The notes beneath the pieces were generated by a model. The model did no database searches and was not told the origin of the DNA. It saw only the letters and a list, made by a program, of their open reading frames with translations. The position numbers and the translations under genes are program-made. A DNA stretch of 64,000 bases. Source: Torpedo marmorata. Lineage: Eukaryota. The stretch lies in contig OZ360219.1 in assembly GCA_977017645.1 (NCBI GenBank), positions 275,156,001 to 275,220,000 of the forward strand. The letters are read 5' to 3'. This document shows, in pieces, positions 6,240-50,900 of the stretch; the first letter of the stretch is position 1; each line of letters begins with the position of its first letter.

Positions 6240-6384
6240 TGTTACAAATTCAAACCAGCAACGACAGAAGACGCAATGCAAAAGGGGTAAAATTGAAATT
6301 ATTATTTATTAAACACAAGTAAACATATAATTTCACAACAATTAACCCCACTATAAACGTCTATAAACTCTATTCTTATCTAAA

Positions 6385-6425
<41 letters not shown>

Positions 6426-7160
6426 GCCCAGACCACTACAGTCTGGGCCCAACCCCTATGTAAAAATGGAAAAACTTTCCCCAAAAACCCCAGGTCAGTC
6501 ATAAAAAACAAGTCAGTCAAAAAAAAAGGATAATACAGTCTACAAAATTCACTCTCTAAGTTCAGGCTTCAACTTCAGCTCTTTGTCTGGTAGAAGTACT
6601 TCTGAATGAACGTTGGAGAGAGACAATGACTGTTTATGCTTACAAATACTTGTTTTCTTCTCTGATGACGTCCCCTTCTGGTATGTTCATAAGGATTGTC
6701 TGTTCAGATCAGTATACCACTGATTTAGGCGTATGCTTGAATCTCACAGCTAGTCTCACTGATCTCACGCCTGTTCTCCACAGAAGTTGCTTTTTAACTC
6801 AGAATTTCTCTGAGACAGGAGGCCATGTGCTATCCTGCCAGTCTTTTCTCTGACTGCCCACACGCCTGGATTTGGCTGTGTTCTCCAGCCTTTGCAACTT
6901 ACAACTGTCTGCCTTGTGCAGTGAACTACACCTGCTTTTTGCAAAAGTGAAACAAATGTATCTTGTCCACATTCTGTCTCTCTCTCTCTGGTCTCTCTCT
7001 GTCTGGGTACACCAAGAGTGCAACAATGTATCTTGTCTGGGTCCACCAAGTAGCTGGGGAAGTTAACTCTTTCAGTACCTGGCCCCAGTGTATACTCCAA
7101 AAGACTTCATCCTTCCTGCTGACCGTCCACAGTCCAAATGGTCAGTCATGGTCCATAACA
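6240..7160 (-). repeat. 3' LTR of the Gmr1-like element (921 bp)
   Basis: Direct repeat of 11641-12549; adjacent to polypurine tract GTGGGTGGGAGG (minus strand, 7161-7172); contains a (GT)n tract. Confidence 0.95.
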
Positions 7161-7292
7161 CCTCCCACCCACAAAGGAAATTTTGGTCTGCAAGAACAAA
7201 ATTTAGGAAAGTAATTGAGGTGTCAGAATATAAACAAAATCTACAATGTTCATCCACAAATACAAAATATGAATTATTTTCATTAATAAAGT

Positions 7293-10200
7293 TTAACATC
7301 TAGAAAGACAATCAGCAATTACATTATCTTTCCCTTTTATATGAGTGATTACCAAATTATATTCTTGCAAAATTAGACTCCAATTCAACAACCGTCGATT
7401 CTTTCCTTTGGAAAAAATTACTTATAATTTACGTAATAAATATCATTCTTTTTTAAAAATTTGGAGCCCATATATGAGAGTTATGGGTTTGAGGATTTGA
7501 AATTTTTGGAAATCAGATCTATTGGCGAGTTTAACCTCCAGATTAAAATTGGTTTTCAGATGGTTCTCTCCTCACTATTAATCTCTTTTTCTTTTTCTTT
7601 TTTCTTTTTCTATTTTTAGAATAGTGGGGTTGGGGGGGTTGGGGAGGGGTGGGAGGGTGCGGGGGGAGGAAATTTATATCACTGTATTTTGGAAACTATA
7701 TATTTTGAATTATGTATTATGTGATTTTAAAAATGTAAATAAAATAATAAAAAAAAAAAAACAACCGTCGATTCTTATTTTTCATTTTACAAAGAAAAAC
7801 CAATGGATTATGGTCAGTATACACTATGAGTGGTTTTTGAGCTGTACAGATATACACATCAAAGTGTTGTAGAGCCAACACAAGAGCCAACAACTCTTTT
7901 ACTATAGTTGAATAATTCCTTTGATGATCATTGAACTTCTTCGAGAAGTAGGATACCGGATGGTCAATGTCCTCTTCGTTCTTCTTCTGTAACAGCACCG
8001 CACCCACAGCTTCATCGCTGGCATCCACGGCTAAAGAAAACGACTGTTCTAAATTAGGTGACTTAAGCACAGGTTGGTGGCATAACATGGCTTTCAATTT
8101 GACAAATGCTTCCTGACAACCTGTTGACCATACAAATTTTTCTTTCTTTCTAAGCAAATTTGTGAGAGGGAGCGCAAGATTAGCAAAGTTTTTACAGAAC
8201 TTGCGGTAGTAGCCAATCATTCCCAGGAAACTCCTCAGAGTTTTCTTACCAGTTGGAACAGGGAACTCGGAAATAGCGACAACCTTTGCCTCTACTGGCG
8301 CCAACTGCCCCAGTCCTACTACATAACTCCGAGAATTAACAGTCCCATGACCCTCTCTGAAACTGGTTCTATCTGTCTCCTCCTTACCCCTGTCAATAAC
8401 CAGCACCTCTGGTACATTTTCAGTCCCTTTGTGCGGCACCTGTTCAAAATACGGCTTAATCATATTCACATGACAGACCTGTGTGTCTCGTCTGCGATTA
8501 GGTGTTTCTATGACATAGGTGACATCATTAATTTTTGACTTAACTCTATAGGGTCCTGAAAATCTAGCCCTAAGAGGATTTGAATGGATGGGAAACAGAA
8601 CTAATACGTTCTCACCAGGTTTAAAAGTTCTCATCTTAGCCTTTCGATCATACCAAACCTTCATTCTCTGTTGGGTGGCCTTTAAATTCTCCTTTGCCAT
8701 CTCACAAGCCCTATGTAACCAATCCTTAAATTTGGAAACATAATCTAACAGATTTAAATGCACATCACGATTAATCCACTGTTCTTTTATTAATCTTAAA
8801 GGACCTCTCACCTCATGTCCGAAAACTAACTCAAATGGACTAAAACCAAGTGAGTCTTGGACAGACTCCCTCGCTGCAAATAACAACAAATGAACCCCAT
8901 CATCCCAATCCTTTTCCTTCTCACAACAATAGGTTCTAATCATGGTTTTCAAAGTCGAATGGAACCTCTCCAAGGCCCCTTGACTTTCTGGATGGTACGC
9001 AGAGGATACAATCTGTTTAACTCCTAGTCCATCAACCACTTGTTGGAAAACGCCTGACATGAAATTACTGCCCTGATCTGATTGAATTTCCCTTGGCAAA
9101 CCAACCAAGGTGAAAAACTTTACCATAGCCTTTACAATTGACTTTGCTTTTATGTTTCTCAGAGGAATGGCCTCTGGAAATCTGGTGACTGCACACATAA
9201 TTGTTAACAAATACTCATTCCCCGCTTTGGTTTTGGGCAATGGGCCAACACAGTCCACAATTACTCTTGAGAAAGGCTCACTGAAAGCAGGGATAGGTTG
9301 CAAGGGTGCCACCGGGGGACCCTGATTAGGTTTACCCACCACCTGACAAGTGTGACAGGCCCGGCAAAAGCTTACAACCTCCCTTCTCAAACTGGGCCAA
9401 TTAAATTTTTTTCATTATCTTCCTTATAGTTTTCTTCACCCCAAGATGACCACCTAAGGGTGTACTATAAAGTTATTATTGCATCCCTATATACTTTAGG
9501 GATCACAACCTGCTGCACTACTGCCCATTCTTCATTGGCAGGAACATCACCTGGTCTCCACTTTCTCATCAACACCCCATCTTTTTCATAATAACCTACT
9601 GGCACCTTTTTAATCTCTTCTTCAGAGAGAACCTTATCCCTCACCTCAGCAAGATCAGGATCGTCCTTTTGCCTTGCTATTAACTCCTGTCGGGATAGTG
9701 ACAAATCTGTGCCTTTAGGTGTCTTATCAGTGGATGGGTGTAACATAGGAGATAGCTCAACCTTTTCCAGGTTTTCTTGATTATCAGTGTCTTTTTCTTT
9801 TACCAAGTTACTTTCCACTGCCTTCTCTACAGTGACATTTTTCTTAGACATGGCCCTGGTTATGGCACATGCCGGATAAATATCAGAGTCTTTCTCTGAC
9901 TTATCAATGACTGGCTTATTGGTCATTCGCACTGCAGGAACTACTTTACCCTTGGCCAAGTCATTGCCTAACAACAGTGAGACTCCTTCTACTGGCAACT
10001 CTGATCTCACTCCTATTATAACTGGTCCTTCCACCAAGTCTGAGTCCAATACTATTTTGTGCAAAGGAATGGACTCAACTTCACCACCAATTCCTTTAAT
10101 TAAATTTATGTCACCGGTGTTAGTAGCTTCACAAAATTCCAAGACACTATCTAACACAAGTGACTGAGCAGCTCCAGTATCTCGCAAGATTTTCACTGGC

Positions 10201-11509
10201 ACTTGTTTTGATCCTGCCTTAACTGAAACAAAACCATCAGTCACAAAAGGTTTAAATACATCTTTAACTTTGTCAGTAAATTTATCTCCTTCCTGGGTGT
10301 TATGCATCTTCTCACTCTGAATACAAGCATTAGGTTTTGCATCCTTTTCTCTCTTCTTTTTCAACACTGGACAGCTTGCTAGCATATGACCAGCCTTCTT
10401 ACAGTAGTGGCAAATGGGACCCGAATTGTTTTCCCTTTTCCACTTTCCTTCATCCCTTTCCTTAACACCACTTCCAAATTTACTTTCCACTTGCTTCTGA
10501 TTATCCACCGTGACCTTTTGGAAAATTCTACCTGACGTCCACTTAGGCTTGTGGGTTAAAGCATATTCATCTGCTAACTTAGCTGAATCTTGCCAAGTTT
10601 TCACCTCTTTTTCATCTAAGTATGCCTTAATATCCTCAGGAACACACCTTTTTATCTCCTCGATTATTATCAATTCTCTCAATTGATTTTAATCATTGTT
10701 TACTTCCTTAGATGTGCACCACCTGTCAAAACACACAACTTTTTCATAGGCAAACTCTGTATAAGATTGGGTTGCTGATCTTTTTAGATTTCTAAACTTC
10801 TGTCTATAAGCCTCTGGAACTAACTCATAAGCCTGGAGTATAGCCTTTTTCACCGTTTCATAATCAGCAGCTTGCTCTGTGGTAAGAGTAGAATAAGCTT
10901 GCTGAGCTTTTCCTTTTATTACACTTTGTAACATAAGAGACCATTGGTCTTGTGGCCATTTAATTTCACAGCCACCTTCTCAAAATGTTGGAAGTACTTA
11001 TCTATTTCTGCCTCCTCAAATGGAGGAACCAACCTAACTTCTCTACTAGCCAAAAACCCCTCAGCAGGATGACGAATTTGATCTTGGCGCTCTTCTTGTC
11101 TCCTCTCATTTTCCAACCTCATCTTTTACAACTCATATTTCCTATTTCTCTCATCGTTCTCTAAGTCTAATCTCTTTTGTTCTAATTCCATGTCAAATTT
11201 CTTTTGTTCCAATTCCAATTTCTTTTGTTCCCTGTCTTCCTCCAATTTCTTTTGTTCCAATTCCAATTTCTTTATTTCCAATTGTATGTTTTCAGAAGGT
11301 TTACCCTTGGGAAACTGCTCTAACATGCTCTCCTCAAACTTTTTTTCTTTTATATAGTACTTGACAATTTTTCTACCAATCTCTGCCTTTTTCATAGATG
11401 GTTTTGCAGAAGCAATGCCCAACTCTGTTGCTATAGCCACTAACTGTTCCTTTTTCGCCTTTTTTAAAGTATCAGGTTCAGGTGATTCCAAAAAATGTTC
11501 TACATCCAT
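7293..11509 (-). pseudogene. Disrupted gag-pol of the Gmr1-like element
   Basis: Coiled-coil and SCAN-like gag (AYELVPEAYRQKFR), CCHC knuckle CHYCKKAGHMLASC, protease LRDTGA, integrase (PLGGHLG...CRACHTC, DCVGP, SDQGSNF, GALERFH), RT C-terminal remnant and RNase H (FLGMIGYYRKF, VDASD, YTDHNPL, DNVIADCLSRC*). Broken by frameshifts/stops near 11125, 10935, 10685 and 9465, an RT deletion near 8350 and an L1 insertion. Confidence 0.9.
7404..7760 (+). mobile_element. 5'-truncated L1-type LINE nested in the LTR element
   Basis: Encodes PLEKITYNLRNKYHSFLKIWSPY (L1-like ORF2 end), has a G-rich 3' UTR, AATAAA and poly(A), and is flanked by the duplication ACAACCGTCGATTCTT (7388-7403, 7761-7776). Confidence 0.85.
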
Positions 11510-11613
11510 TGTTGCTGATTTTTCGTTACACACACACTAGCTTTTAATTAGCTTTACAAAAGGAATGCCTTATACCAAACTGGGATTCCTTCAATTACCA
11601 AGATGGATTTTGA

Positions 11614-11637
11614 TTCAAATCCTAGGACAAGCCCCCA
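11614..11637 (-). promoter_or_regulatory. Primer binding site, tRNA-Pro-like
   Basis: TGGGGGCTTGTCCTAGGATTTGAA, 3 nt from the 5' LTR, versus the tRNA-Pro complement TGGGGGCTCGTCCGGGATTTGAA. Confidence 0.8.
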
Positions 11638-11640
11638 ATT

Positions 11641-12549
11641 TGTTACAAATTCAAACCAGCAACGACAGAAGACGCAATGCAAAAGGGGTAAAATTGAAAT
11701 TATTATTTATTAAACACAAGTAAACATATAATTTCACAACAATTAACCCCACTATAAACGTCTATAAACTCTATTCTTATCTAAAAGGTGTGTGTGTGTG
11801 TGTGTGTGTGTAAAGCCCAGACCACTACAGTCTGTGCCCAACCCCTATGTAAAAATGGAAAAACTTTCCCCAAAAACCCCAGGTCAGTCATAAAAAACAA
11901 GTCAGTCAAAAAAAAAGGATAATACAGTCTACAAAATTCACTCTCTAAGTTCAGGCTTCAACTTCAGCTCTGTGTCTGGTAGAAGTACTTCTGAATGAAC
12001 GTTGGAGAGAGACAATGACTGTTTATGCTTACAAATACTTGTTTTCTTCTCTGATGACGTCCCCTTCTGGTATGTTCATAAGGATTGTCTGTTCAGATCA
12101 GTATACCACTGATTTAGGCGTATGCTTGAATCTCACAGCTAGTCTCGCTGATCTCACGCCTGTTCTCCACAGAAGTTGCTTTTTAACTCAGAATTTCTCT
12201 GAGACAGGAGGCCATGTGCTATCCTGCCAATCTTTTCTCTGACTGCCCACACGCCTGGATTTGGCTGTGTTCTCCAGCCTTTGCAACTTACAACTGTCTG
12301 CCTTGAGCAGTGAACTACACCTGCTTTTTGCAAAAGTGAAACAAATGTATCTTGTCCACAGTCTGTCTCTCTCTCTCTGGTCTCTCTCTGTCTGGGTACA
12401 CCAAGAGTGCAACAATGTATCTTGTCTGGGTCCACCAAGTAGCTGGGGAAGTTAACTCTTTCAGTACCTGGCCCCAGTGTATACTCCAAAAGACTTCATC
12501 CTTCCTGCTGACCGTCCGCAGTCCAAATGGTCAGTCATGGTCCATAACA
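11641..12549 (-). repeat. 5' LTR of the Gmr1-like element (909 bp)
   Basis: Differs from the 3' LTR by about 7 substitutions (counted by eye) and a 12-bp shorter (GT)n tract. Confidence 0.95.
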
Positions 12550-12859
12550 CTTGGCTAACATCTTTTAATGAGAATCCATGTAATGCATTTCTCCCATCAG
12601 TCCATTATATTCTCAAAAACTCTTTTAAATATGTTTGACATGACTTGCTTTCAACAAATCTATGCTTGACCCCTTAAGCCATGCCTTTAATAATGAATAA
12701 TAATTATACAGCATAGTCTCTAAAATATAGTGCTCCTAACATCAGTAGCGTTATTTGTCGTTGGTTACTCCCAATTTGAACAGAGGTTTTTAAATGCATA
12801 CTTTGCGTGGTTAAAAAATGTAGACCTTAAATTTATCTGAACAAGGCTGGAACTGGGTG

Positions 12860-18093: not shown

Positions 18094-19794
18094 CCGTATA
18101 TTTCAGCGTATAAGTCGACTGACAGATGTCGGGTCCACTTTTTCAGCCTCTTTTTAATGGTTTTATCATATATCGGGCATATAAGTCGACCCCCAAATAT
18201 CGTGATGACTGAGCTGTTGGGCGTTGGCTGAAGGTGGTTGTTATCATGGAGGCTCCAGCAAAACGACAAAAGTATGAAGCGAGTTTTAAGTTAAAAATAA
18301 TAGAAATGGCCAAGAAAACCAACAACTGTGCTGCTGCAAGAAAATTTGATGTATATGAGAAGTTGGCAAGAGATTGGAGAAAGAAAGAAGAGACTTTAAG
18401 AAAAATACCAAAAAGGCAATGTTCGATGAGAAGAGGAATCACTCGTTGGCCAGAGTTAGAAAATCACGTCGCAGCATGGGTACGTGAACAGAGGCAAGAT
18501 TGCTACATAGTCACCCAAAATAAACTAAGAGCATTTGTACTGAAGTGGGCAAAGTCGTGCCCAGAACGCAGTAAAGATTTTGAAGCTACAGTAGGCTGGT
18601 GCAACCGTTTCATGAACAGGAAAAATCTGGTATTACGACAAAAAAAAAAAATTGCTCAGAAACTACCAAAAGATCTTGATCATAAAGTTGTAAGTTTTCA
18701 CCAGTTTATTATACGTAACCGGCAGAAACACCAGTTTGCATTGGCAAATATTGGAAACATGGACGAAACCCCCATGAATTTCGACATGATAGGCAATAGA
18801 ACAGTGGAATGTAAAGGTGTGAAAACTGTGCAAACCAGGAGTACAGGCCATGAAAGGACCAGGTTTACCGTGGTGTTATCGTGCATGGCTGACGGGACAA
18901 AGTTAAGGCCCATGGTAATCTTCAAGCGCAAACTTAAACCTAAAATAAAATTCCCAGCAGGTATTTTTGTATATTTTCATGAAAAAGGATGGATGGATGA
19001 AAATGGTGTAAAACTATGGGTAGACAATGTGTGGAACAGGCGGTTTACGCAAGGAACGGAGTTTGCTGGTCTGGGATATGTTTCGTAGCCACTTAACTGA
19101 GAACACTAAAAGTAGATTAGCACTAAATAATACTTACATGGCGGTTATCCCGGATGGTTTGACATCTCTATTGCAACCTCTCGATGTCTGCTTGAACAAG
19201 CCATTCAAAGACCATGTGCGTGAAGAATGGAATACATGGATGACGAGTGCAGAAAAATTGTTTACAAAAGGCGGGGCAATGCGTGCTGCATCACTTGATG
19301 TGCTGTGTGACTTTATGCTCAAAGCATGGGATAAAGTGAAAGTGGAGACTGTAATAAAATCATTTAAAAAGTGTGGTATCTCTTGTGCAATTGATGGTAT
19401 GGAAGATGATTTATTGTGGGACACTGACGACGAAGCTGAAGCCGCCTCATCAGATACAGACTGGGACCCGTATGATGACTGTCTAAACAGTGAGAGTATG
19501 GATGTGCTTGCCGCGATCTTTGCCTCAGACGATGATAGTGATAGTGATTTTGAAGGATTCTAAATGTGTTTTTTTTTCAATAAAAATTTTGTTCTAATAT
19601 ACTGATAGCATGAAAATTTGTTGTAGTTGGGTTTTTTGGGGTTTTTCAAGGGTCGACATACGCCGAATATCCATCCAGCGGTTTTTTGAGTTGAATTTAA
19701 GGTCTCAAAAGTATATCTGCCGTATAAGTCGACCCCCATTTTTTGAGAGATTTTTGAGGGTTTCAAGACTCGACTTATACGCCAAAATATACGG
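18094..19794 (+). mobile_element. Full-length pogo-superfamily DNA transposon (DD35D, Passer-like)
   Basis: TIRs CCGTATATTT(CA/TG)GCGTATAAGTCGA, TA TSD (18092-18093, 19795-19796), subterminal TATAAGTCGACCC repeats and an internal transposase. Confidence 0.92.
18246..19563 (+). pseudogene. pogo transposase with a single frameshift
   Basis: Brinker-like N-terminal HTH (YEASFKLKIIE), CENP-B HTH (WPELE...GWCNRFMNR), catalytic NMDETP / VWDMF / QPLDV with 35 residues between the last two Asp, acidic tail; frameshift near 19040. Confidence 0.9.
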
Positions 19795-28583: not shown

Positions 28584-30460
28584 CAGAATCAGAATCAGAA
28601 TTTATTGTCATGAACAAGTCATGAAATTCGGTTTTTTGCAGCAGCATCATAGTGCAAACATTCATATTATAACCATCTTACGACATTACCATAAAAAAGT
28701 AGAAATAATAGTGCACGAAAAGTAAGGTAGTGTCTTTGGTCATTGATTATTCAGGAATCTGATGGCAGCGGGGAAGAAGCTGTCCTTGTGCCGTTGAGTG
28801 CTCGACTTTAGGCTCCTGTACCTTTTTCCCGATGGTAGCAGAGTGAAGAGGGCATGGCCTGGGTGGTGAGGCTCTTTGAGGATAGAGGCTGCTTTTTTAA
28901 GACACCGTCTCGTGTAGATGTCCTCGATGGAGTGAAGTCTGGAGCCTGTGATGTCACAGGCCGAGTTAACAACCCTCTGGAGTTTATTCTTGTCCTGAGA
29001 GTTGATGCAACCAGCCAGAATGCTCTCCACGGTACACCTGTAGAAGTTTACGAGAGTCTTCGGTGACATACCGAATCTCCTCAGACACCTCATAAAATAT
29101 AGCCGCTAGCGAGCCTTCTTGTGATTGCATCAACGTGGAGGCTCCAGGACAGATCCTCGAAGATGTTGACACCCAGGAATTTGAAGTTCTTGACCCTCTC
29201 CACTACTGAGCCCTCGATGAGGACTGGGTCGTGTTCCCCTGACTTCCTTCTGAAGTCCACAATCATCTCCTTGATTTTGATGACTTTGAGCGCAAAGTTG
29301 TTGTTGTTACACCATTCAACGAGCTGATCTATCTTCCTCCTGTACGCTTCCTCATTGCCGTTTATGATTCTGCCGACAACTATGGTGTCATCGGCAAACT
29401 TGTAGATGGCATTGGAATTGTGCCTGGCCACACAGTCATGGGTGTATAACGAGTAGAGCAGTGGGATAAGCACGCATCCTTGGGGTGCGCCTGTGTTGAT
29501 AATCCGTGAGGAGGAGACGTTGTTTCCAATTCGTACTGACTGTGGTCTTCCGATGAGAAAGTCAAGGATCCAGTTGCAGAGTGGGGTACAGAGGCCGAGA
29601 GTTTGTAGCTTCTTGACCAGTACTGAAGGAATAATGGTATTGAAGGCCGAGCTGTAGTCGATGAAGAGCAGCCGTATGTATGAATTGCTGTTTTCGATGT
29701 GATCCAGAGCTGAGTGGAGAGCTAGCGATATTGCATCTGCTGTGGAGCGATTGTGATGATAGGCAAAATGCAGTGGGTCCAGATCTTTGCTTAGGTACGT
29801 GTTAATTCTGGCCATGACCAGCCTCTCAAAGCATTTCATCACAATAGAAGTTAGTGCTACTGGGCGGTAGTCATTGAGGCAGCACACACTACTCTTCTTG
29901 GGTACCAGGATGATTGATGCCCTTTTGAAGCAGGTGGGAACCTCTTACTGCCGCAATGAGAGGTTGAAAATGTCCCTGAACATTCCGGCTAGTTGGCTCA
30001 GATTTTCAGTACCCTGCCAGGTACGCCGTCAGGGCCTGACGCCTTGCGAGGGTTCACCCTCTTGAATGATGTTCTGACGTCGCCCTCAGAGACAGATATC
30101 ACAGGGTCCTCAGCATTTTCAGGGATTCTAGTAGGCACTGTTTGGTTCTTCTTCTCAAAGCGGGCATAGAAGGTGTTCAGCTCATCGGGTAGTGAAGCAT
30201 CACAGCCGTCTATAGTGTTCACCTTCGCTTTGTAGGCTATAATGGCCTGCACTCCCTGCCATAGCTGGCATGTATCTGTCTCTAACTTCCTCCGGAATTG
30301 CCACTTTGCTTCAGAGATGGCCTTCCACAGGTCGTGCCTGGACTTCTTGTAAAGATCCCGATCCCCGGCTTAAATGCCCTTGTTCTCGCCCTCAGCAGGT
30401 TGCGAATTCTCTGATTCATCCAGGGCTTCTGGTTGGGGAACACCCGGTATTTGCGCAGGT
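28584..30460 (-). mobile_element. Rex1/Babar-type LINE, 1.9 kb including the RT domain (frameshifted)
   Basis: RT motifs [41 protein letters not shown] (ORF 29090-29887); upstream KASGPDGVPGR and NQKPWM; (TTCTGA)n tail. Confidence 0.92.
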
Positions 30461-46700: not shown

Positions 46701-47544
46701 TTCAGTTGGCGATCCAAAGTTAAGAAGTTTTTTTTTCTGATTTTAATGACAAATATTGCTGTGCAGCAGATTACGCGAATGTCCATGTTTATGGTAGCTT
46801 AGCTTGCAAATGGCTATAGCGGTTTGAATTTTTCTCGCATTGTTGTACTGTGTGAGTGGTACCCATTTTGTGTCATGATTAATATAGGACCAACCAAGTT
46901 AACACAACATAAATTGACAATATTACTTTGTTATTTTCTATCATCCAAAATTACAAAATTGTAAAATCAAAATCCAAAAATTGTTAAATTGCATGATGTG
47001 AATGGAAAAAAAATAAGTTGGAGATCTAGAAAATGACAGTATCATCATCAATTGTAGTCTGCTGGGGAGCTACTTTATTCCCTTGACAAAGTTTATTGAA
47101 TTGATCATGTTTCTGATTGCTTAAAGCAAGTGTACACGACTGGGAGCAATTCAGCTAGGGACTATTCTTAGGTACATTTTTGTTTAGAGAAGAATCATGA
47201 TTGAACCTGAAAAATTAGTGTAATAAATTCTATAATTTTGTTGTAATATATTTTAATTTCTATTTTAATTGAATGAAATAGAATCACCAGTTTGGTATTT
47301 AGATAACATTTGCTAGACTGCGAGATGAGCAAATTAACAACAATGGGGGTAAAGACTGGAAGAGGAAAATAAAATGATTGAGGTTTTTTTTAATCTGAAG
47401 TACCGTATTTGACGGCATATAAGACCCACTTTTTTTTCCCAAAAATTGGCTCCAAAATATCCCCCGGGTCTTATATGCGAAGTTGAAATTAGGGTGATAA
47501 TGGTGAGTAACGCCAACAGTGATCATCATCGCTGCGTGGCTTAG

Positions 47545-47669
47545 TATCGGGGAGGGAGGGATCCCCCGCTGTCTGCCTGGCCCCGGTGTCAGGAAGGGAG
47601 GGATCCCCCGCTGTCCGCCCGGTATTGCGCCTGGCCCCGATATCAGGGAGGGAGGGATCCCCCGCTGTT
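47545..47669. repeat. Three ~29-bp direct repeats (GGGAGGGATCCCCCGCTGT core)
   Basis: Units at 47545-47573, 47587-47615 and 47641-47669. Confidence 0.9.
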
Positions 47670-47686
47670 CACTTGGCATTGCCGCG

Positions 47687-47982
47687 ATGGCTGCTGAGCA
47701 GGTCGCCGGCTACTCGCCCAGCTTCAAGAAGTCCGCAGAGGTGCTGCGGCTGTCCAGGAAGCGGGCCTGCAGCTTTGCGGGCCACCTTCCCTCGGGTGGC
47801 CTGTACTTTTCGGAGCTACCGCTCACTTCCCCCGGTGAGAAGGCCGAGCACGGCGGCCCTGCCAGCAGTGCAAGAGGTGCAGGAGGAACCCGTTCGCAAA
47901 CATCGCCAACACCCATGGGTTGCCGGTGGGGACCCCGGGCTCTGGGGCTGGGCAGCCTGCTGAGGAGAAGCCGCACAGCAAA
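47687..47982 (+). pseudogene. DONSON: Captured DONSON exon-1-like fragment (frameshifted)
   Basis: GCCGCG-ATG-G encodes MAAEQVAGYSPSFKKSAEVLRLSRKRA (human DONSON recalled as [26 protein letters not shown]); a shifted frame from 47881 gives RRNPFANIAN (human RRNPFARLDN); ends at AAA|GTGAGT. Confidence 0.8.
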
Positions 47983-50900
47983 GTGAGTGAGAACTGAATT
48001 AAAAACATTCAGCTTACCCGTAAATACACTAAAAAAAATTCTTAATATTCCCTGCTGAAATGGGGGGGCCTTATATGCCCGTGGGTCTTATATGCCATCA
48101 AATACGGTAATTGATGAGATTACCTGTTACATTTTGAACAAGTTCTCTTTCCTCTACCCATTCCAGTCACCATTTGTGCACTGCTGAAATGTATAAATGC
48201 TGTTTTAGCACAGATCCAATGTTGTAATCAGAAATTCATCTATGTTGCATGAAAATATGGCATTGTTGTGTGGGGTTTTAATGCATAATGTGAGTGTCAA
48301 ATTTCAAAAAGCATTCAACTTGAGTGTTCTCGTATATTTGTAGTTATTCTTTTTGCATATAGTTTGGCATCTCAATGCCACCTCAGAAATGAATGTGACT
48401 TGGATTGCTACAGTTATGAGAACAAATCTCTCATCCATCATTTTATTGAAGTAATCACTTTTAAACTGTGGTTGAACATATAGCTGTTGTTGGTGATGTA
48501 TAAAATGAGTACGATTTGAAATGTGATTTTTTTTTGGAATTTAAATTGAGCTCAAATTATCTGTCAAACTCCAGTTATTTTCCAAATATAAACCTTTTGC
48601 AGAAATACTAAGAAAGCAACAAATCAGTTGCCTTCACATGTGGGTGTGTAAAAATGTATTTCTTAGACAACATTATTTAAGATATTCTGAAATAAATATG
48701 ATGAAGTTGGATTGTGTATTTTACATGAAGAAAGAGTCACAACCTTTTTGAAGTGGACATCATAATATTTAATAGTTAGGAGGGAAGTTGTACAAATTGA
48801 ATATGCATATTTCAAGAATATTTACCAGATAATTCTGAAAAATTATCTACGAACACAAAATTAAGTACAAATATTTACTTCTCTCCACATCAATACATGA
48901 ATACATATGTAAAAAATATTCTTCAGAAAAGACAGATAATTCATTGCATAAAATAGTTCAATTTGCATTTTAACTTCCGTTATCAAATTACTGAAAAAAA
49001 TCAATATTTAAAAAGGACTGCCCTGAAATAATTATAACACTACCATCAGACAATTTTCCTTTTCTTAATATTTTCTTGTGCGTGAATATTAATGTAGAAA
49101 TAATTTTCATATGCATGTAGTGAATATCCAATATGATTTAAAATCTTAATTTAATTCAATATGGATTTTTTTCTGCGCTACCCTGCACAAGATATGATAA
49201 ATTTAAAGCTGGTCTACTTTTCCAAGGGGTAGTAATTACAAAAAGACAGGAAATTATCCCCTTCGCTATTTATTTAAAGTTTATCGTATATCCTCCATGT
49301 TGCCAGAACCTCTCCTTCCTCTCTTTCAGAGCCAGTTTTATTGTTTGTGATGGTTCAGTACATGAACATTTCATATGCCCCAAAGAAATGAAAGCTAATG
49401 AAAACTAAATCTGAGCTGATGTGGCATAAGCAGCACTCTGGGGATAGGTGCGCGGGGGGAGGTGGGGGGGCAGGGGGGGCAGGGGGGATGGTGTGGAGCA
49501 GAATCAGGGCCAGTCAGACTTAAGTTATTCAACAAAAACTCCGTCTTTAAATCTCTTTCCACAACACTGATCACGATTGTGTCAACTGTATTTTGCCAAA
49601 GCAAATTTAATTTTACTGAAATGAATTGTAAAGCTCAACGCCTGTCAATTCTAAATACTTTTAAGAATCATCTTAAAATGGATTATTTGCAAAGTAATAG
49701 AGTAGTATCACGTTACAAAACAAAAACCGATAACACGCTGGTTCCTACCTTGATATGACATGAATCAGTTATGATACTTATACCATGTCTCTTAAGATGC
49801 ATTAACAATATATTAGCCTCCCTCCCCACTGTATGCAATGGTTGCAAACAAACCACAATAACATTGAGAAAATTTCAAAGTAACTAAAGTATAATGCTCC
49901 CTGTTCTTTTTCTAAACCAGCACCCAGCATCTTTTACCTCCAAGCTTCATGCTCTCCAGTTTGAAATCTTGACCCAATTACCCCGATGCAGGCAACTACC
50001 ACATTGCGGCTGTTTTATTGCGAATATTCGTCCTATCAGAATTCACAAATCATGACCCAAAGATTTCAGATGTACAATAAAATTAGCTCTCACACAATTT
50101 GTCGGGTAAAAAAAATTAATAAATTAACACTAAATATCTTTTTCAACTCTTGTCTCTTGACGTATGTGCAGATGATGTAGCATCGTGTAATGGAAAATTG
50201 CGATACAGACCATTATCTAGGAATGCAACTCCATCTCCCCACTCCCCCCCCCCACCAGTAATGCGGGGGTCACTTGCACTTCAAAACTATAGAACAGGCT
50301 ACCTCCATCAGTCCTTCTTTTCTCCTACAATTCTTAAGCTTCCATTACTCAAAGCCTGCATCTTATCTCTTTTATTTGTTTCTTAATTCATATATTCTGA
50401 ACTCTTCCTACTTTGCTTGCCTTGGGTTCAATAACTTAAATGAAAAGTAATATCTTTATGGTCCATAAAGAACAGTGAAGAAGTTTTAGACTTGTCTCCA
50501 TTTTGATTTATCTCCACTCAGATATTATAAAATCCTATCTTGGTGCCTAAAACAATTATTTTAAAATAAGAGGCTCTGATTTACATATTTTGCAAAACTT
50601 ATGTACAAGTGTTTTTTGAACTATTTTACTCTAAAGACTATAAAAGAATAGTTGATTGACTTTTATTCTTTAGAACATGGTGGTACATTTGTAAGCACAC
50701 TGCTTGTTACCTTTTTCCCTTGACCTATCCATTAAGTTATTCTAATATGCCTAAGTATTGAGAGTCCTCAGGAAGCCCCTAAACATTTACCATTCATAAA
50801 GTTGTGGGTGTGAGCCTCACTTCTGGATGTGAGCACATACAGGTTTGGTTGGTTCTTCAGTGCTGTATTAGAGGTGTCATAAAGTATTGTAGGTTGGTGC

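What the first reader, a model, noticed from the sequence alone, without database searches (positions are those of the whole stretch)
47403..48107. Pogo-type transposon carrying the first coding exon of DONSON (gene-fragment capture)
Seen: 27-bp TIRs and a TA TSD enclose a CpG-rich segment with a Kozak ATG (47687) encoding MAAEQVAGYSPSFKKSAEVLRLSRKRA and, after a frameshift, RRNPFANIAN. It ends at an intact donor AAA|GTGAGT (47983). Recalled: the GYSP.F.K..EV.RL.RKR and RRNPF motifs mark the N-terminus of the replication factor DONSON. Inference: retention of the donor and absence of poly(A) indicate DNA-level capture (Pack-MULE/Pack-TIR style), not retroposition. Matching TIRs and preserved CpGs suggest a young element that may be spreading a host exon. 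Gene capture of this kind is rarely documented in vertebrates.
Basis: partly seen in the sequence, partly recalled or inferred. Interest (0 to 1): 0.88.

Follow-up and report, generated by a model that had tools for sequence, protein, structure and literature searches.

The report
Jumping DNA multiplying host first exons
A small cut-and-paste transposon in a ray genome carries a copy of the first exon of the essential replication gene DONSON, likely picked up during DNA repair; pieces of that exon now match about 6,000 places in the genome, far more than any animal case found in the papers searched, although the copies are decaying and likely have no function.

Summary
Confirmed and larger than reported. 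The 705-bp element has 27-bp TIRs and TA target duplications, and its arms match pogo/Passer (DD35D) transposase-bearing elements. Inside are tandem copies of the DONSON 5'UTR, nearly all of coding exon 1 and 25 nt of intron 1. The real 10-exon DONSON gene is on contig C43.

One detail is wrong: the 'intact donor' is not the gene's donor. It is a junction left by a ~254-nt deletion. Two longer copies keep the native donor and intron, which shows DNA-level capture.

The window's form has 89 exact junction matches. A DONSON exon-1 core matches 6,263 places, and 40 of 40 sampled lie in this TIR family, 39 in a sister subfamily. The window's form later captured a TRMU-like first exon. Other DNA transposons here carry DMRT1 and DMRTA2-like first-exon pieces.

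The copies are not young (2.8% non-CpG and 14% CpG decay) and evolve about neutrally (N/S 1.04; 17 of 38 frameshifted). Published vertebrate Pack-TIRs are mostly single-copy; bat Helitrons are the closest parallel. The scan noted a similar BAZ1A case in a shark genome (not checked here). Expression is untested.

The parts
47401..47402 (+). TA target-site duplication, left
   Evidence: Sequence; TA at both ends in 23 of 25 complete copies
47403..47429 (+). 5' terminal inverted repeat, 27 bp
   Evidence: the same TIR bounds full-length transposase elements L255 and L256
47403..47541 (+). 5' arm from pogo/Passer subfamily A; includes the 56-nt segment that precedes the transposase start in L112, L142 and L132
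   Evidence: 93% to L142 over element positions 1-141; the segment has 1,391 genome matches
47542..47627 (+). Extra tandem copies of a 54-nt unit made from the DONSON 5'UTR/start region; copy number varies among elements
   Evidence: Direct repeat D1; unit matches host C43:42157944-42157986; variable among copies
47628..47686 (+). Captured DONSON 5'UTR (about 50 nt) plus a 9-nt repeat that forms the 'Kozak' context
47687..47983 (+). Captured DONSON coding exon 1, lacking its last 11 nt; this copy has a 6-nt and a 1-nt deletion (frameshift)
   Evidence: Host C43:42157994-42158297; protein matches
47983..47988 (+). Donor-like GTGAGT created by a deletion junction; not the host donor
   Evidence: Host donor lies 11 nt further on; long copies L080 and L081 keep the skipped ~254 nt; 89 exact junction matches
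47984..48008 (+). 25 nt of DONSON intron 1
   Evidence: 100% to C43:42158526-42158550, E=4.6e-7 in 60 kb
48012..48107 (+). 3' arm from subfamily A, with a subterminal repeat of the TIR core
   Evidence: 98% to L142 over element positions 612-709; repeat D4
48081..48107 (-). 3' terminal inverted repeat, 27 bp
48108..48109 (+). TA target-site duplication, right

Best explanation
This is a non-autonomous pogo/Passer-family transposon whose interior is a genomic copy of the 5' end of DONSON, likely acquired by template switching during gap repair and then likely spread in trans by the family's transposase, with copies that now decay as likely functionless passengers. Shown: arms, TIRs, TA duplications, the parent gene, intron sequence inside the element, and many copies with their own flanks. 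Inferred order of events: (1) about 600 bp (5'UTR, exon 1, ~270 nt of intron 1) entered a subfamily-A element (long form, L080 and L081); (2) a ~254-nt deletion removed the native donor and made a new donor-like joint (the window's form, likely 125 or more copies); (3) further tandem duplications, deletions and a second capture (TRMU-like promoter region, exon 1 and intron start) gave more forms; (4) a 141-nt piece of exon 1 was also joined in frame to the transposase start of sister subfamily B, and this form and its 102-nt derivative reached thousands of copies. Template switching as the capture step is inferred (about 0.6) from short microhomologies and frequent internal rearrangement.
For: The parent gene has 10 exons at C43:42.158-42.184 Mb, and the element matches only its 5'UTR, exon 1 and intron 1. 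Two long copies have TIRs, TA ends and the native donor plus intron. [quoted passage not shown] Copy counts: 89 exact junction matches and 6,263 exon-core matches, control 0. All 40 sampled core matches have at least one family TIR and 33 have both; 19 of 60 TIR-sampled elements carry DONSON 5'UTR or exon pieces. Second capture: the TRMU-like piece is 82-84% identical to single locus C57:32.793 Mb, whose later exons follow at 32.810-32.819 Mb. Direction host to element: the exon's motifs are conserved in other rays, a shark and PDB 8q6o. A 5-nt microhomology is shared by host and TE at the 3' junction (with a 2-nt insert) and at the subfamily-B junction, read by eye. Neutral decay: N 383 and S 210 observed against 373 and 212 expected; 17 of 38 copies frameshifted.
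Against: No empty orthologous or paralogous site was seen. The 5' capture junction shows no clear microhomology, and the microhomologies were not tested against chance. No stop-making substitution was seen in 38 copies against 3.3-5.7 expected (P about 0.04-0.003). That set dropped 17 of 55 copies with rearranged or truncated exons, some of which show such a stop (one search prints), so it is a weak hint of constraint. It is unresolved whether subfamily B took its piece from the gene or from an A-type element: B has 4 near-fixed changes of its own and no site separates the two sources. Samples for structure came from zero-mismatch matches on contig C1 only.
Confidence: 0.92

Rival explanations
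1. The GC/CpG-rich host cargo is not a mere passenger: it likely helps the element spread, by keeping it in open or less-silenced chromatin or by making the host's silencing costly to DONSON. This would explain why cargo-bearing forms dominate the family. This is a complement to the best explanation, about the cause of amplification.
For: 36 of 44 TIR-sampled elements with both ends found have interiors of at least 55% GC; the 5 transposase-coding ones are 36-40% GC. All identified cargoes are 5' ends of genes (DONSON, TRMU-like, DMRT1, DMRTA2-like). Bat Helitrons with 5' gene ends reached higher copy numbers (PMC4224331, passages).
Against: CpG sites in the copies decay 4-5 times faster than other sites (13.9% vs 2.8%; 11.7% vs 2.7%), which is consistent with germline methylation. 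In maize, capture gave no rise in copy number (10.1101/777037, abstract only). A few founder events can dominate a family by chance.
Confidence: 0.25
2. The copies act as portable first exons: the TE promoter, a start codon, 100 codons of DONSON and a strong new donor would splice into downstream host exons and make chimeric proteins, some under selection.
For: 14 of 38 copies keep an open exon frame. The new joint reads GTGAGT in phase 0. Subfamily B joins exon 1 in frame to the transposase start and also ends in a donor-like word. Stop deficit.
Against: N/S ratio 1.04 and 17 of 38 frameshifted. This copy is frameshifted. The commonest B form has lost the start codon (32 of 39 B-type copies begin at host position 154-159). 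No host exon was found by Pfam in 127 open frames of window 30001-64000.
Confidence: 0.08
3. A spliced or retroposed DONSON transcript fragment was inserted into an existing MITE, and the joint at 47983 is a splice joint.
For: The element skips 229 nt of the host sequence.
Against: The skip starts 11 nt before the real donor and its ends are not GT..AG. It joins to intron 1, not exon 2. There is no poly(A) tail. The long forms contain the whole skipped intron stretch inside TIRs.
Confidence: 0.02
4. The element is young and is spreading now.
For: The TIRs are 26/27 identical. One full-length copy has an open 424-aa transposase with the DD35D triad and both TIRs.
Against: Copies are 84-94% identical pairwise (mean 90.7%), and none of 40 scored candidates exceeded 90% to the window copy. 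The junction is bridged by contigs of three coded organisms. Transposase copies are at most 94% identical to L128 in protein and most are broken; only 2 of the 150 listed have stop-free frames of 436 aa or more over the match.
Confidence: 0.05
5. The copies are segmental duplications of the DONSON 5' region, or DONSON exon 1 itself derives from this transposon.
For: None found.
Against: Flanks differ among copies, and similarity stops at TA-bounded TIRs. The true locus has no arms beside exon 1. The exon's motifs are shared with a shark and with PDB 8q6o.
Confidence: 0.01

Closest known systems
Animal Pack-TIRs (Tan et al. 2021, PMC8277862; abstract, sections 7, 9, 12 and 14, and find passages read)
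   Same: Host sequence sits between the two ends of one TIR element, with an identifiable parent not flanked by the element. TcMariner carriers are common. Multicopy cases capture GC-rich 5' sequence (CAPSL 5'UTR in frog) and have distinct insertion sites.
   Different: That survey found 370 cases in 100 genomes, only four of them multicopy, and the frog examples had 3-5 copies. Here one exon piece matches 6,263 places, with serial captures and a graded series of derivatives. The words shark and cartilaginous do not occur in its main text; its supplements were not read.
Bat Helitrons carrying promoters, 5'UTRs, first exons and introns (Thomas et al. 2014, PMC4224331; 12 passages read)
   Same: Bias to the 5' ends of genes, amplification to thousands (HelibatN3-NUBPL about a thousand copies; 12,382 copies from 54 genes), and sequential capture.
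   Different: Helitrons are rolling-circle elements without TIRs. This is a cut-and-paste TIR element with TA duplications.
Plant Pack-MULEs and Pack-TYPE elements (recalled; abstracts seen in the listing and cited in PMC8277862)
   Same: Non-autonomous TIR elements carrying GC-rich 5' gene fragments, often from several genes.
   Different: Different superfamily (Mutator, 9-bp TSD, long TIRs; recalled) and kingdom. As recalled, individual Pack-MULEs usually stay at low copy number.
Passer family of the pogo superfamily (Gao et al. 2020, PMC7386202, and PMC9976928; passages read)
   Same: TA TSD, TIRs under 30 bp, 1.6-kb autonomous element, 424-aa transposase with Brk and HTH DNA-binding motifs and DD35D.
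   Different: Gene capture is not mentioned in the passages read. The window element itself encodes no transposase.

Membership tests
Pack-TIR (Tan et al. 2021) | Internal 100-5,000 bp sequence flanked by both ends of one TIR element | tested here: met
   About 470 bp between arms that match L142 at 93% and 98%
Pack-TIR (Tan et al. 2021) | Unambiguous parental locus not flanked by the element | tested here: met
   C43:42157943-42158550; no arm match in 60 kb around it
Pack-TIR (Tan et al. 2021) | Not a retroduplicate | tested here: met
   Intron 1 retained, native donor present in the long form
Pack-TIR (Tan et al. 2021) | Their 'young' pipeline filter: at least 90% identity, length ratio 80-120%, unique top hit | tested here: not met
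   The window copy is 86% by BLAST, has an internal deletion and has many sibling hits. This is a detection filter, not a biological definition, and suggests why such families could be missed.
Multicopy (transposed) Pack-TIR | Same chimeric structure at many sites with separate target duplications | tested here: met
   25 of 30 copies with both TIRs and distinct flanks, 23 with TA at both ends; 89 exact junction matches
Multicopy (transposed) Pack-TIR | Empty orthologous site in a relative | tested here: inconclusive
   None of the 15 joints shown skips the whole element and 204 more were not shown; one contig of organism B enters the 3' TIR by 27 nt, under the tool's 31-nt rule
pogo superfamily, Passer family | TA TSD and short TIR (<30-40 bp) | tested here: met
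pogo superfamily, Passer family | [quoted passage not shown] | tested here: met
   L255, L128 and L132 share the TIR and carry these domains
pogo superfamily, Passer family | DD35D catalytic spacing | tested here: met
   Counted by hand in the L255 and L128 translations. L256 has an in-frame loss at the second D.
pogo superfamily, Passer family | Placement in the Passer clade on a DDE tree | not tested
Pack-MULE | Mutator TIRs and 8-10 bp TSD | tested here: not met
   27-bp TIR, 2-bp TA; it works like a Pack-MULE but is not one
Helitron gene capture | No TIR, rolling-circle ends | tested here: not met
   TIRs and TA duplications present
DONSON | Sequence identity to DONSON N-terminus and to the genome's own multi-exon gene | tested here: met

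The most novel reading that the evidence does not exclude
In this ray lineage, several cut-and-paste transposon families have become a Pack-MULE-like machine that repeatedly lifts CpG-island first exons (DONSON, TRMU, DMRT1, DMRTA2-like) and multiplies them hundreds to thousands of times because the cargo itself helps them escape silencing or move. The genome then holds thousands of decoys of the 5' end of an essential replication gene and of the vertebrate sex-determination gene, which would expose those genes to small-RNA or methylation cross-talk.
Probability: 0.22. Interest if true: 0.92.

Novelty: new variant of a known kind. Interest (0 to 1): 0.76.

Why it matters
The one animal-wide survey found (PMC8277862) concluded that TIR-transposon gene capture in animals is rare and nearly always single-copy. 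Here one family spread pieces of one essential gene's first exon to about 6,000 sites, one per megabase on average. It kept the intermediates (long form, deletion form, second capture, sister-subfamily fusion), so the steps of capture can be read from a single genome. That makes two open questions testable in a vertebrate: whether multicopy capture works by gap repair or fork switching, and whether captured gene fragments help transposons or harm the donor gene. The copies also preserve an older state of DONSON exon 1 and intron 1, and give shared insertion markers for ray phylogeny. In practice they will confuse annotation, read mapping and primer design for DONSON, TRMU and DMRT genes in these species.

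Tried and rejected
Pfam has no match for the window peptides or for full-length DONSON P0003; family PF27662 is not in the held library.

Sequencing runs: no RNA holder listed, so expression was not examined. Contigs of 4 runs showed no listed joint that skips the element (15 joints shown, 204 not shown). Organism B's contig over 48083-49100 (52 other letters) has only 27 nt in the TIR, so a shared orthologous insertion is not counted.

Host-gene context: 127 of the window's 248 open frames of 62 aa or more (those from 30001 on) were scanned; only 3 hits, RVT_1 and ALKBH8_N, the latter recalled as a LINE-tail match. Small or unconserved exons would be missed, so 'intergenic' is not shown.

The source of subfamily B's second GC-rich cargo and of the commonest GC-rich interior was not found: neither matches the 60 kb around DONSON, and both contain long internal inverted repeats.

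Source of B's DONSON piece (gene or A-type element): no diagnostic site. The stop-codon deficit was judged weak because the filter dropped rearranged copies.

Literature: DONSON + transposon, 63 papers, none of the 20 listed relevant; 'Pack-TIR', 3 papers; Torpedo + electric ray + genome assembly + transposable elements, 0; Torpediniformes + genome + transposon, 1 unrelated; captured host + non-autonomous + mariner + fish genome + exon, 1 Helitron paper; DMRT1/DONSON/transposon/elasmobranch, 5, none on capture by title or abstract start. PMC5753468: 3 passages, nothing on capture by DNA transposons. The library lacks most subscription papers, and Repbase and Dfam could not be searched; supplements of PMC8277862 were not read. 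No earlier notes exist on this genome.
Full report
OBSERVATION. The element runs from 47403 to 48107 between two TA dinucleotides. Its 27-bp TIRs differ at one CpG position. The interior is GC- and CpG-rich (0.65 and o/e 0.65, against 0.385 and 0.38 for the window) and holds three copies of a 54-nt unit. The first matches PDB 8q6o, 'Protein downstream neighbor of son homolog' (E=1.1e-4). An open-frame sibling matches it at 5.6e-10 and matches ray and shark DONSON proteins at 79, 71, 63 and 50%, Narcine closest. The 6.2-Gb genome is therefore inferred to be a ray related to Narcine.

PARENT GENE. Exons 2-10 of DONSON map to C43:42.161-42.184 Mb and exon 1 to 42157994. The element matches the 5'UTR and exon 1 (window 47628-47983, 86%) and, separately, 25 nt of intron 1 (47984-48008, 100%); no element arm lies at the locus. 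The host exon continues 11 nt past the element's joint to its own donor, and exon 2 begins in frame. A search with the skipped stretch found two further full matches among 40 scored candidates. Both, L080 and L081, are 875-880 bp elements with the same TIRs, TA ends and own flanks, and both keep the native donor and about 270 nt of intron. This shows capture from DNA and gives the order long form, then deletion form. Capture starts about 50 nt above the ATG, so the upstream promoter-like region of the gene (NRF1- and E2F-like words, recalled, seen) was not taken.

TIMING. Element and host share a 7-8 residue insertion that Narcine, Pristis, Hypanus and Hemiscyllium lack, so capture is inferred to postdate the split from Narcine. 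The element keeps three residues in the state shared with Narcine, Pristis and Hypanus where the host gene has since changed. In the intron, the long copies keep bases that other copies of the intronic repeat also have and the host has lost. The host exon differs from the copies' column majority by 2 substitutions and two 3-nt indels. The 38 copies differ from it by 2.8% at non-CpG and 13.9% at CpG sites, and 25 full copies average 90.7% pairwise. Contigs of three coded organisms bridge the joint with more than 31 letters on each side (X1 record 4, X2 record 15, X6 record 23); X1 may be the window's own species. The burst is therefore old, not current. With slow elasmobranch rates (recalled) this would be tens of millions of years; no date is claimed.

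CARRIER. The TIR pattern has 8,986 matches, control 0; this is a floor, because subfamily B's 5' end differs from the pattern. I fetched 60 of the 100 listed matches, skipping partner ends and known copies; the last two were chosen for being paired. They include transposase-bearing elements of two subfamilies, A (L112, L132, L142) and B (L128, L141). Pfam finds BrkDBD, HTH_Tnp_Tc5 and DDE_1. L255 is full length with both TIRs, a 424-aa open frame and DD35D spacing. These features define Passer in PMC7386202 and PMC9976928 (passages); no tree was built. The window element's arms are A-type, 93% and 98% to L142.

SCALE. The window's joint has 89 exact matches; 21 of the 30 best-scoring copies carry that exact word, so about 125 or more copies are likely. 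A 26-nt exon-1 core, with CpG degeneracy and up to 2 mismatches, matches 6,263 places, control 0. I fetched the first 43 listed, less 3 already held. All 40 have at least one family TIR and 33 have both; 39 are B-type and 1 is A-type. Seven B copies carry 141 nt of exon 1 joined in frame behind the first codons of the transposase; 32 carry about 102 nt (translations). Independently, 19 of the 60 TIR-sampled elements carry DONSON 5'UTR or exon pieces; a twentieth hit was only the intronic repeat. Both samples come from zero-mismatch matches on contig C1.

SERIAL CAPTURE. Three of 30 joint-bearing loci (L058, L061, L071), and L120, have the 5' part replaced by another gene's first exon. Its peptide matches Pfam tRNA_Me_trans above the cut-off and MnmA structures weakly; the vertebrate name TRMU is recalled. 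Its parent is C57:32.793 Mb, with later exons 17-26 kb downstream. The captured stretch covers upstream sequence, exon, native donor and intron start, at 82-84% identity including indels. The search had 142 candidates, 40 scored.

FUNCTION. Substitutions in 38 copies fit neutrality (N 383, S 210; expected 373, 212). 17 of 38 are frameshifted and 14 keep an open frame. Against this, no stop-making change was seen against 3.3-5.7 expected, but 17 of 55 copies were dropped by the filter and some rearranged copies do show such a stop. The window copy is frameshifted, and no host exon was detected near it in the half of the window that was scanned.

MECHANISM. Shown: the structure, the parent, the intermediates and the dispersal. 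[quoted passage not shown] Five-base microhomologies at the 3' junction and at the B junction fit this (read by eye; not tested against chance), as do the many internal tandem and inverted duplications. The transposase then likely moved the product in trans. Why cargo-bearing forms dominate (36 of 44 closed elements have interiors of at least 55% GC) is open: founder chance or a cargo advantage.

COMPARISON AND VERDICT. Tan et al. found 370 Pack-TIRs in 100 animal genomes, four of them multicopy, with 3-5 copies in the frog examples. Their filters (90% identity, unique top hit) would miss this family. Bat Helitrons show the same 5' bias, thousands of copies and serial capture by another mechanism. 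The searches listed under Tried and rejected found no report of this case. Verdict: a real multicopy Pack-TIR of the Passer type, a new variant of a known kind by scale and serial capture; old and likely neutral; interest 0.76.

Noticed in passing
L093:309-503; L189-L198; parent L223:1414-1680 (G000:C2:246.427 Mb): Another pogo-like family (different TIR) carries the 5'UTR, start and first DM-domain codons of DMRT1 (90% and 94% to the parent; parent matches PDB 4yj0, E=2.8e-30). 807 candidates, 40 scored. One copy is nested in an element that also holds the DONSON 5'UTR repeat.
   Followed up: partly
L203, L204, L207-L210; parent L202 (G000:C2:256.478 Mb): A third carrier, with a hAT-like 5' end (recalled), holds about 1 kb of a DMRTA2-like gene (name recalled): the whole DM domain, the native donor and intron, 92% to the parent for L208. 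The DM family search gave 87 matches from 150 scored of 3,769 candidates. 3' ends and target duplications were not defined.
   Followed up: partly
L058, L061, L071, L120, L211-L222; parent L239:806-1272 (G000:C57:32.793 Mb): TRMU/MnmA-like first exon captured into the window-type element.
   Followed up: yes
G000:C25:126.417-126.451 Mb (L240, L038, L242, L243): A second, divergent DONSON-like gene: five exon-like matches at 37-59% identity to P0003. Possibly an old paralogue; intactness not checked.
   Followed up: partly
L255:575-2221 (G000:C40:30.136 Mb): Full-length Passer-type element with an open 424-aa transposase, DD35D and both TIRs. L256 is open but has lost the second catalytic D region in frame.
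   Followed up: partly
L102:359-602 and L106:166-384 in oriented element coordinates: Unidentified GC-rich cargoes with long internal inverted repeats, in subfamily B and in the commonest subfamily-A element; no parent found.
   Followed up: partly
window 18213-19560: [quoted passage not shown]
   Followed up: partly
window about 6240-12550 (open frames 7720-9411 and 9468-10688, minus strand): An LTR-retrotransposon-like element with matching ~1-kb ends and gag/integrase-like frames (identity judged from the translations, not scanned).
   Followed up: no
window 29861-30264: 408 nt at 95% to the 3' end of a family element (L144), so a further family member or fragment lies in the window.
   Followed up: no
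L223:1836-2508: DMRT1 intron 1 holds a ~22-nt GC-rich minisatellite that resembles the expanded repeat inside the DMRT1-carrying elements.
   Followed up: no
L043:5994-6550: The host DONSON exon 1 and intron start differ from the captured state by more indels (two in the exon, four in the intron) than exon substitutions (two); unexplained.
   Followed up: partly
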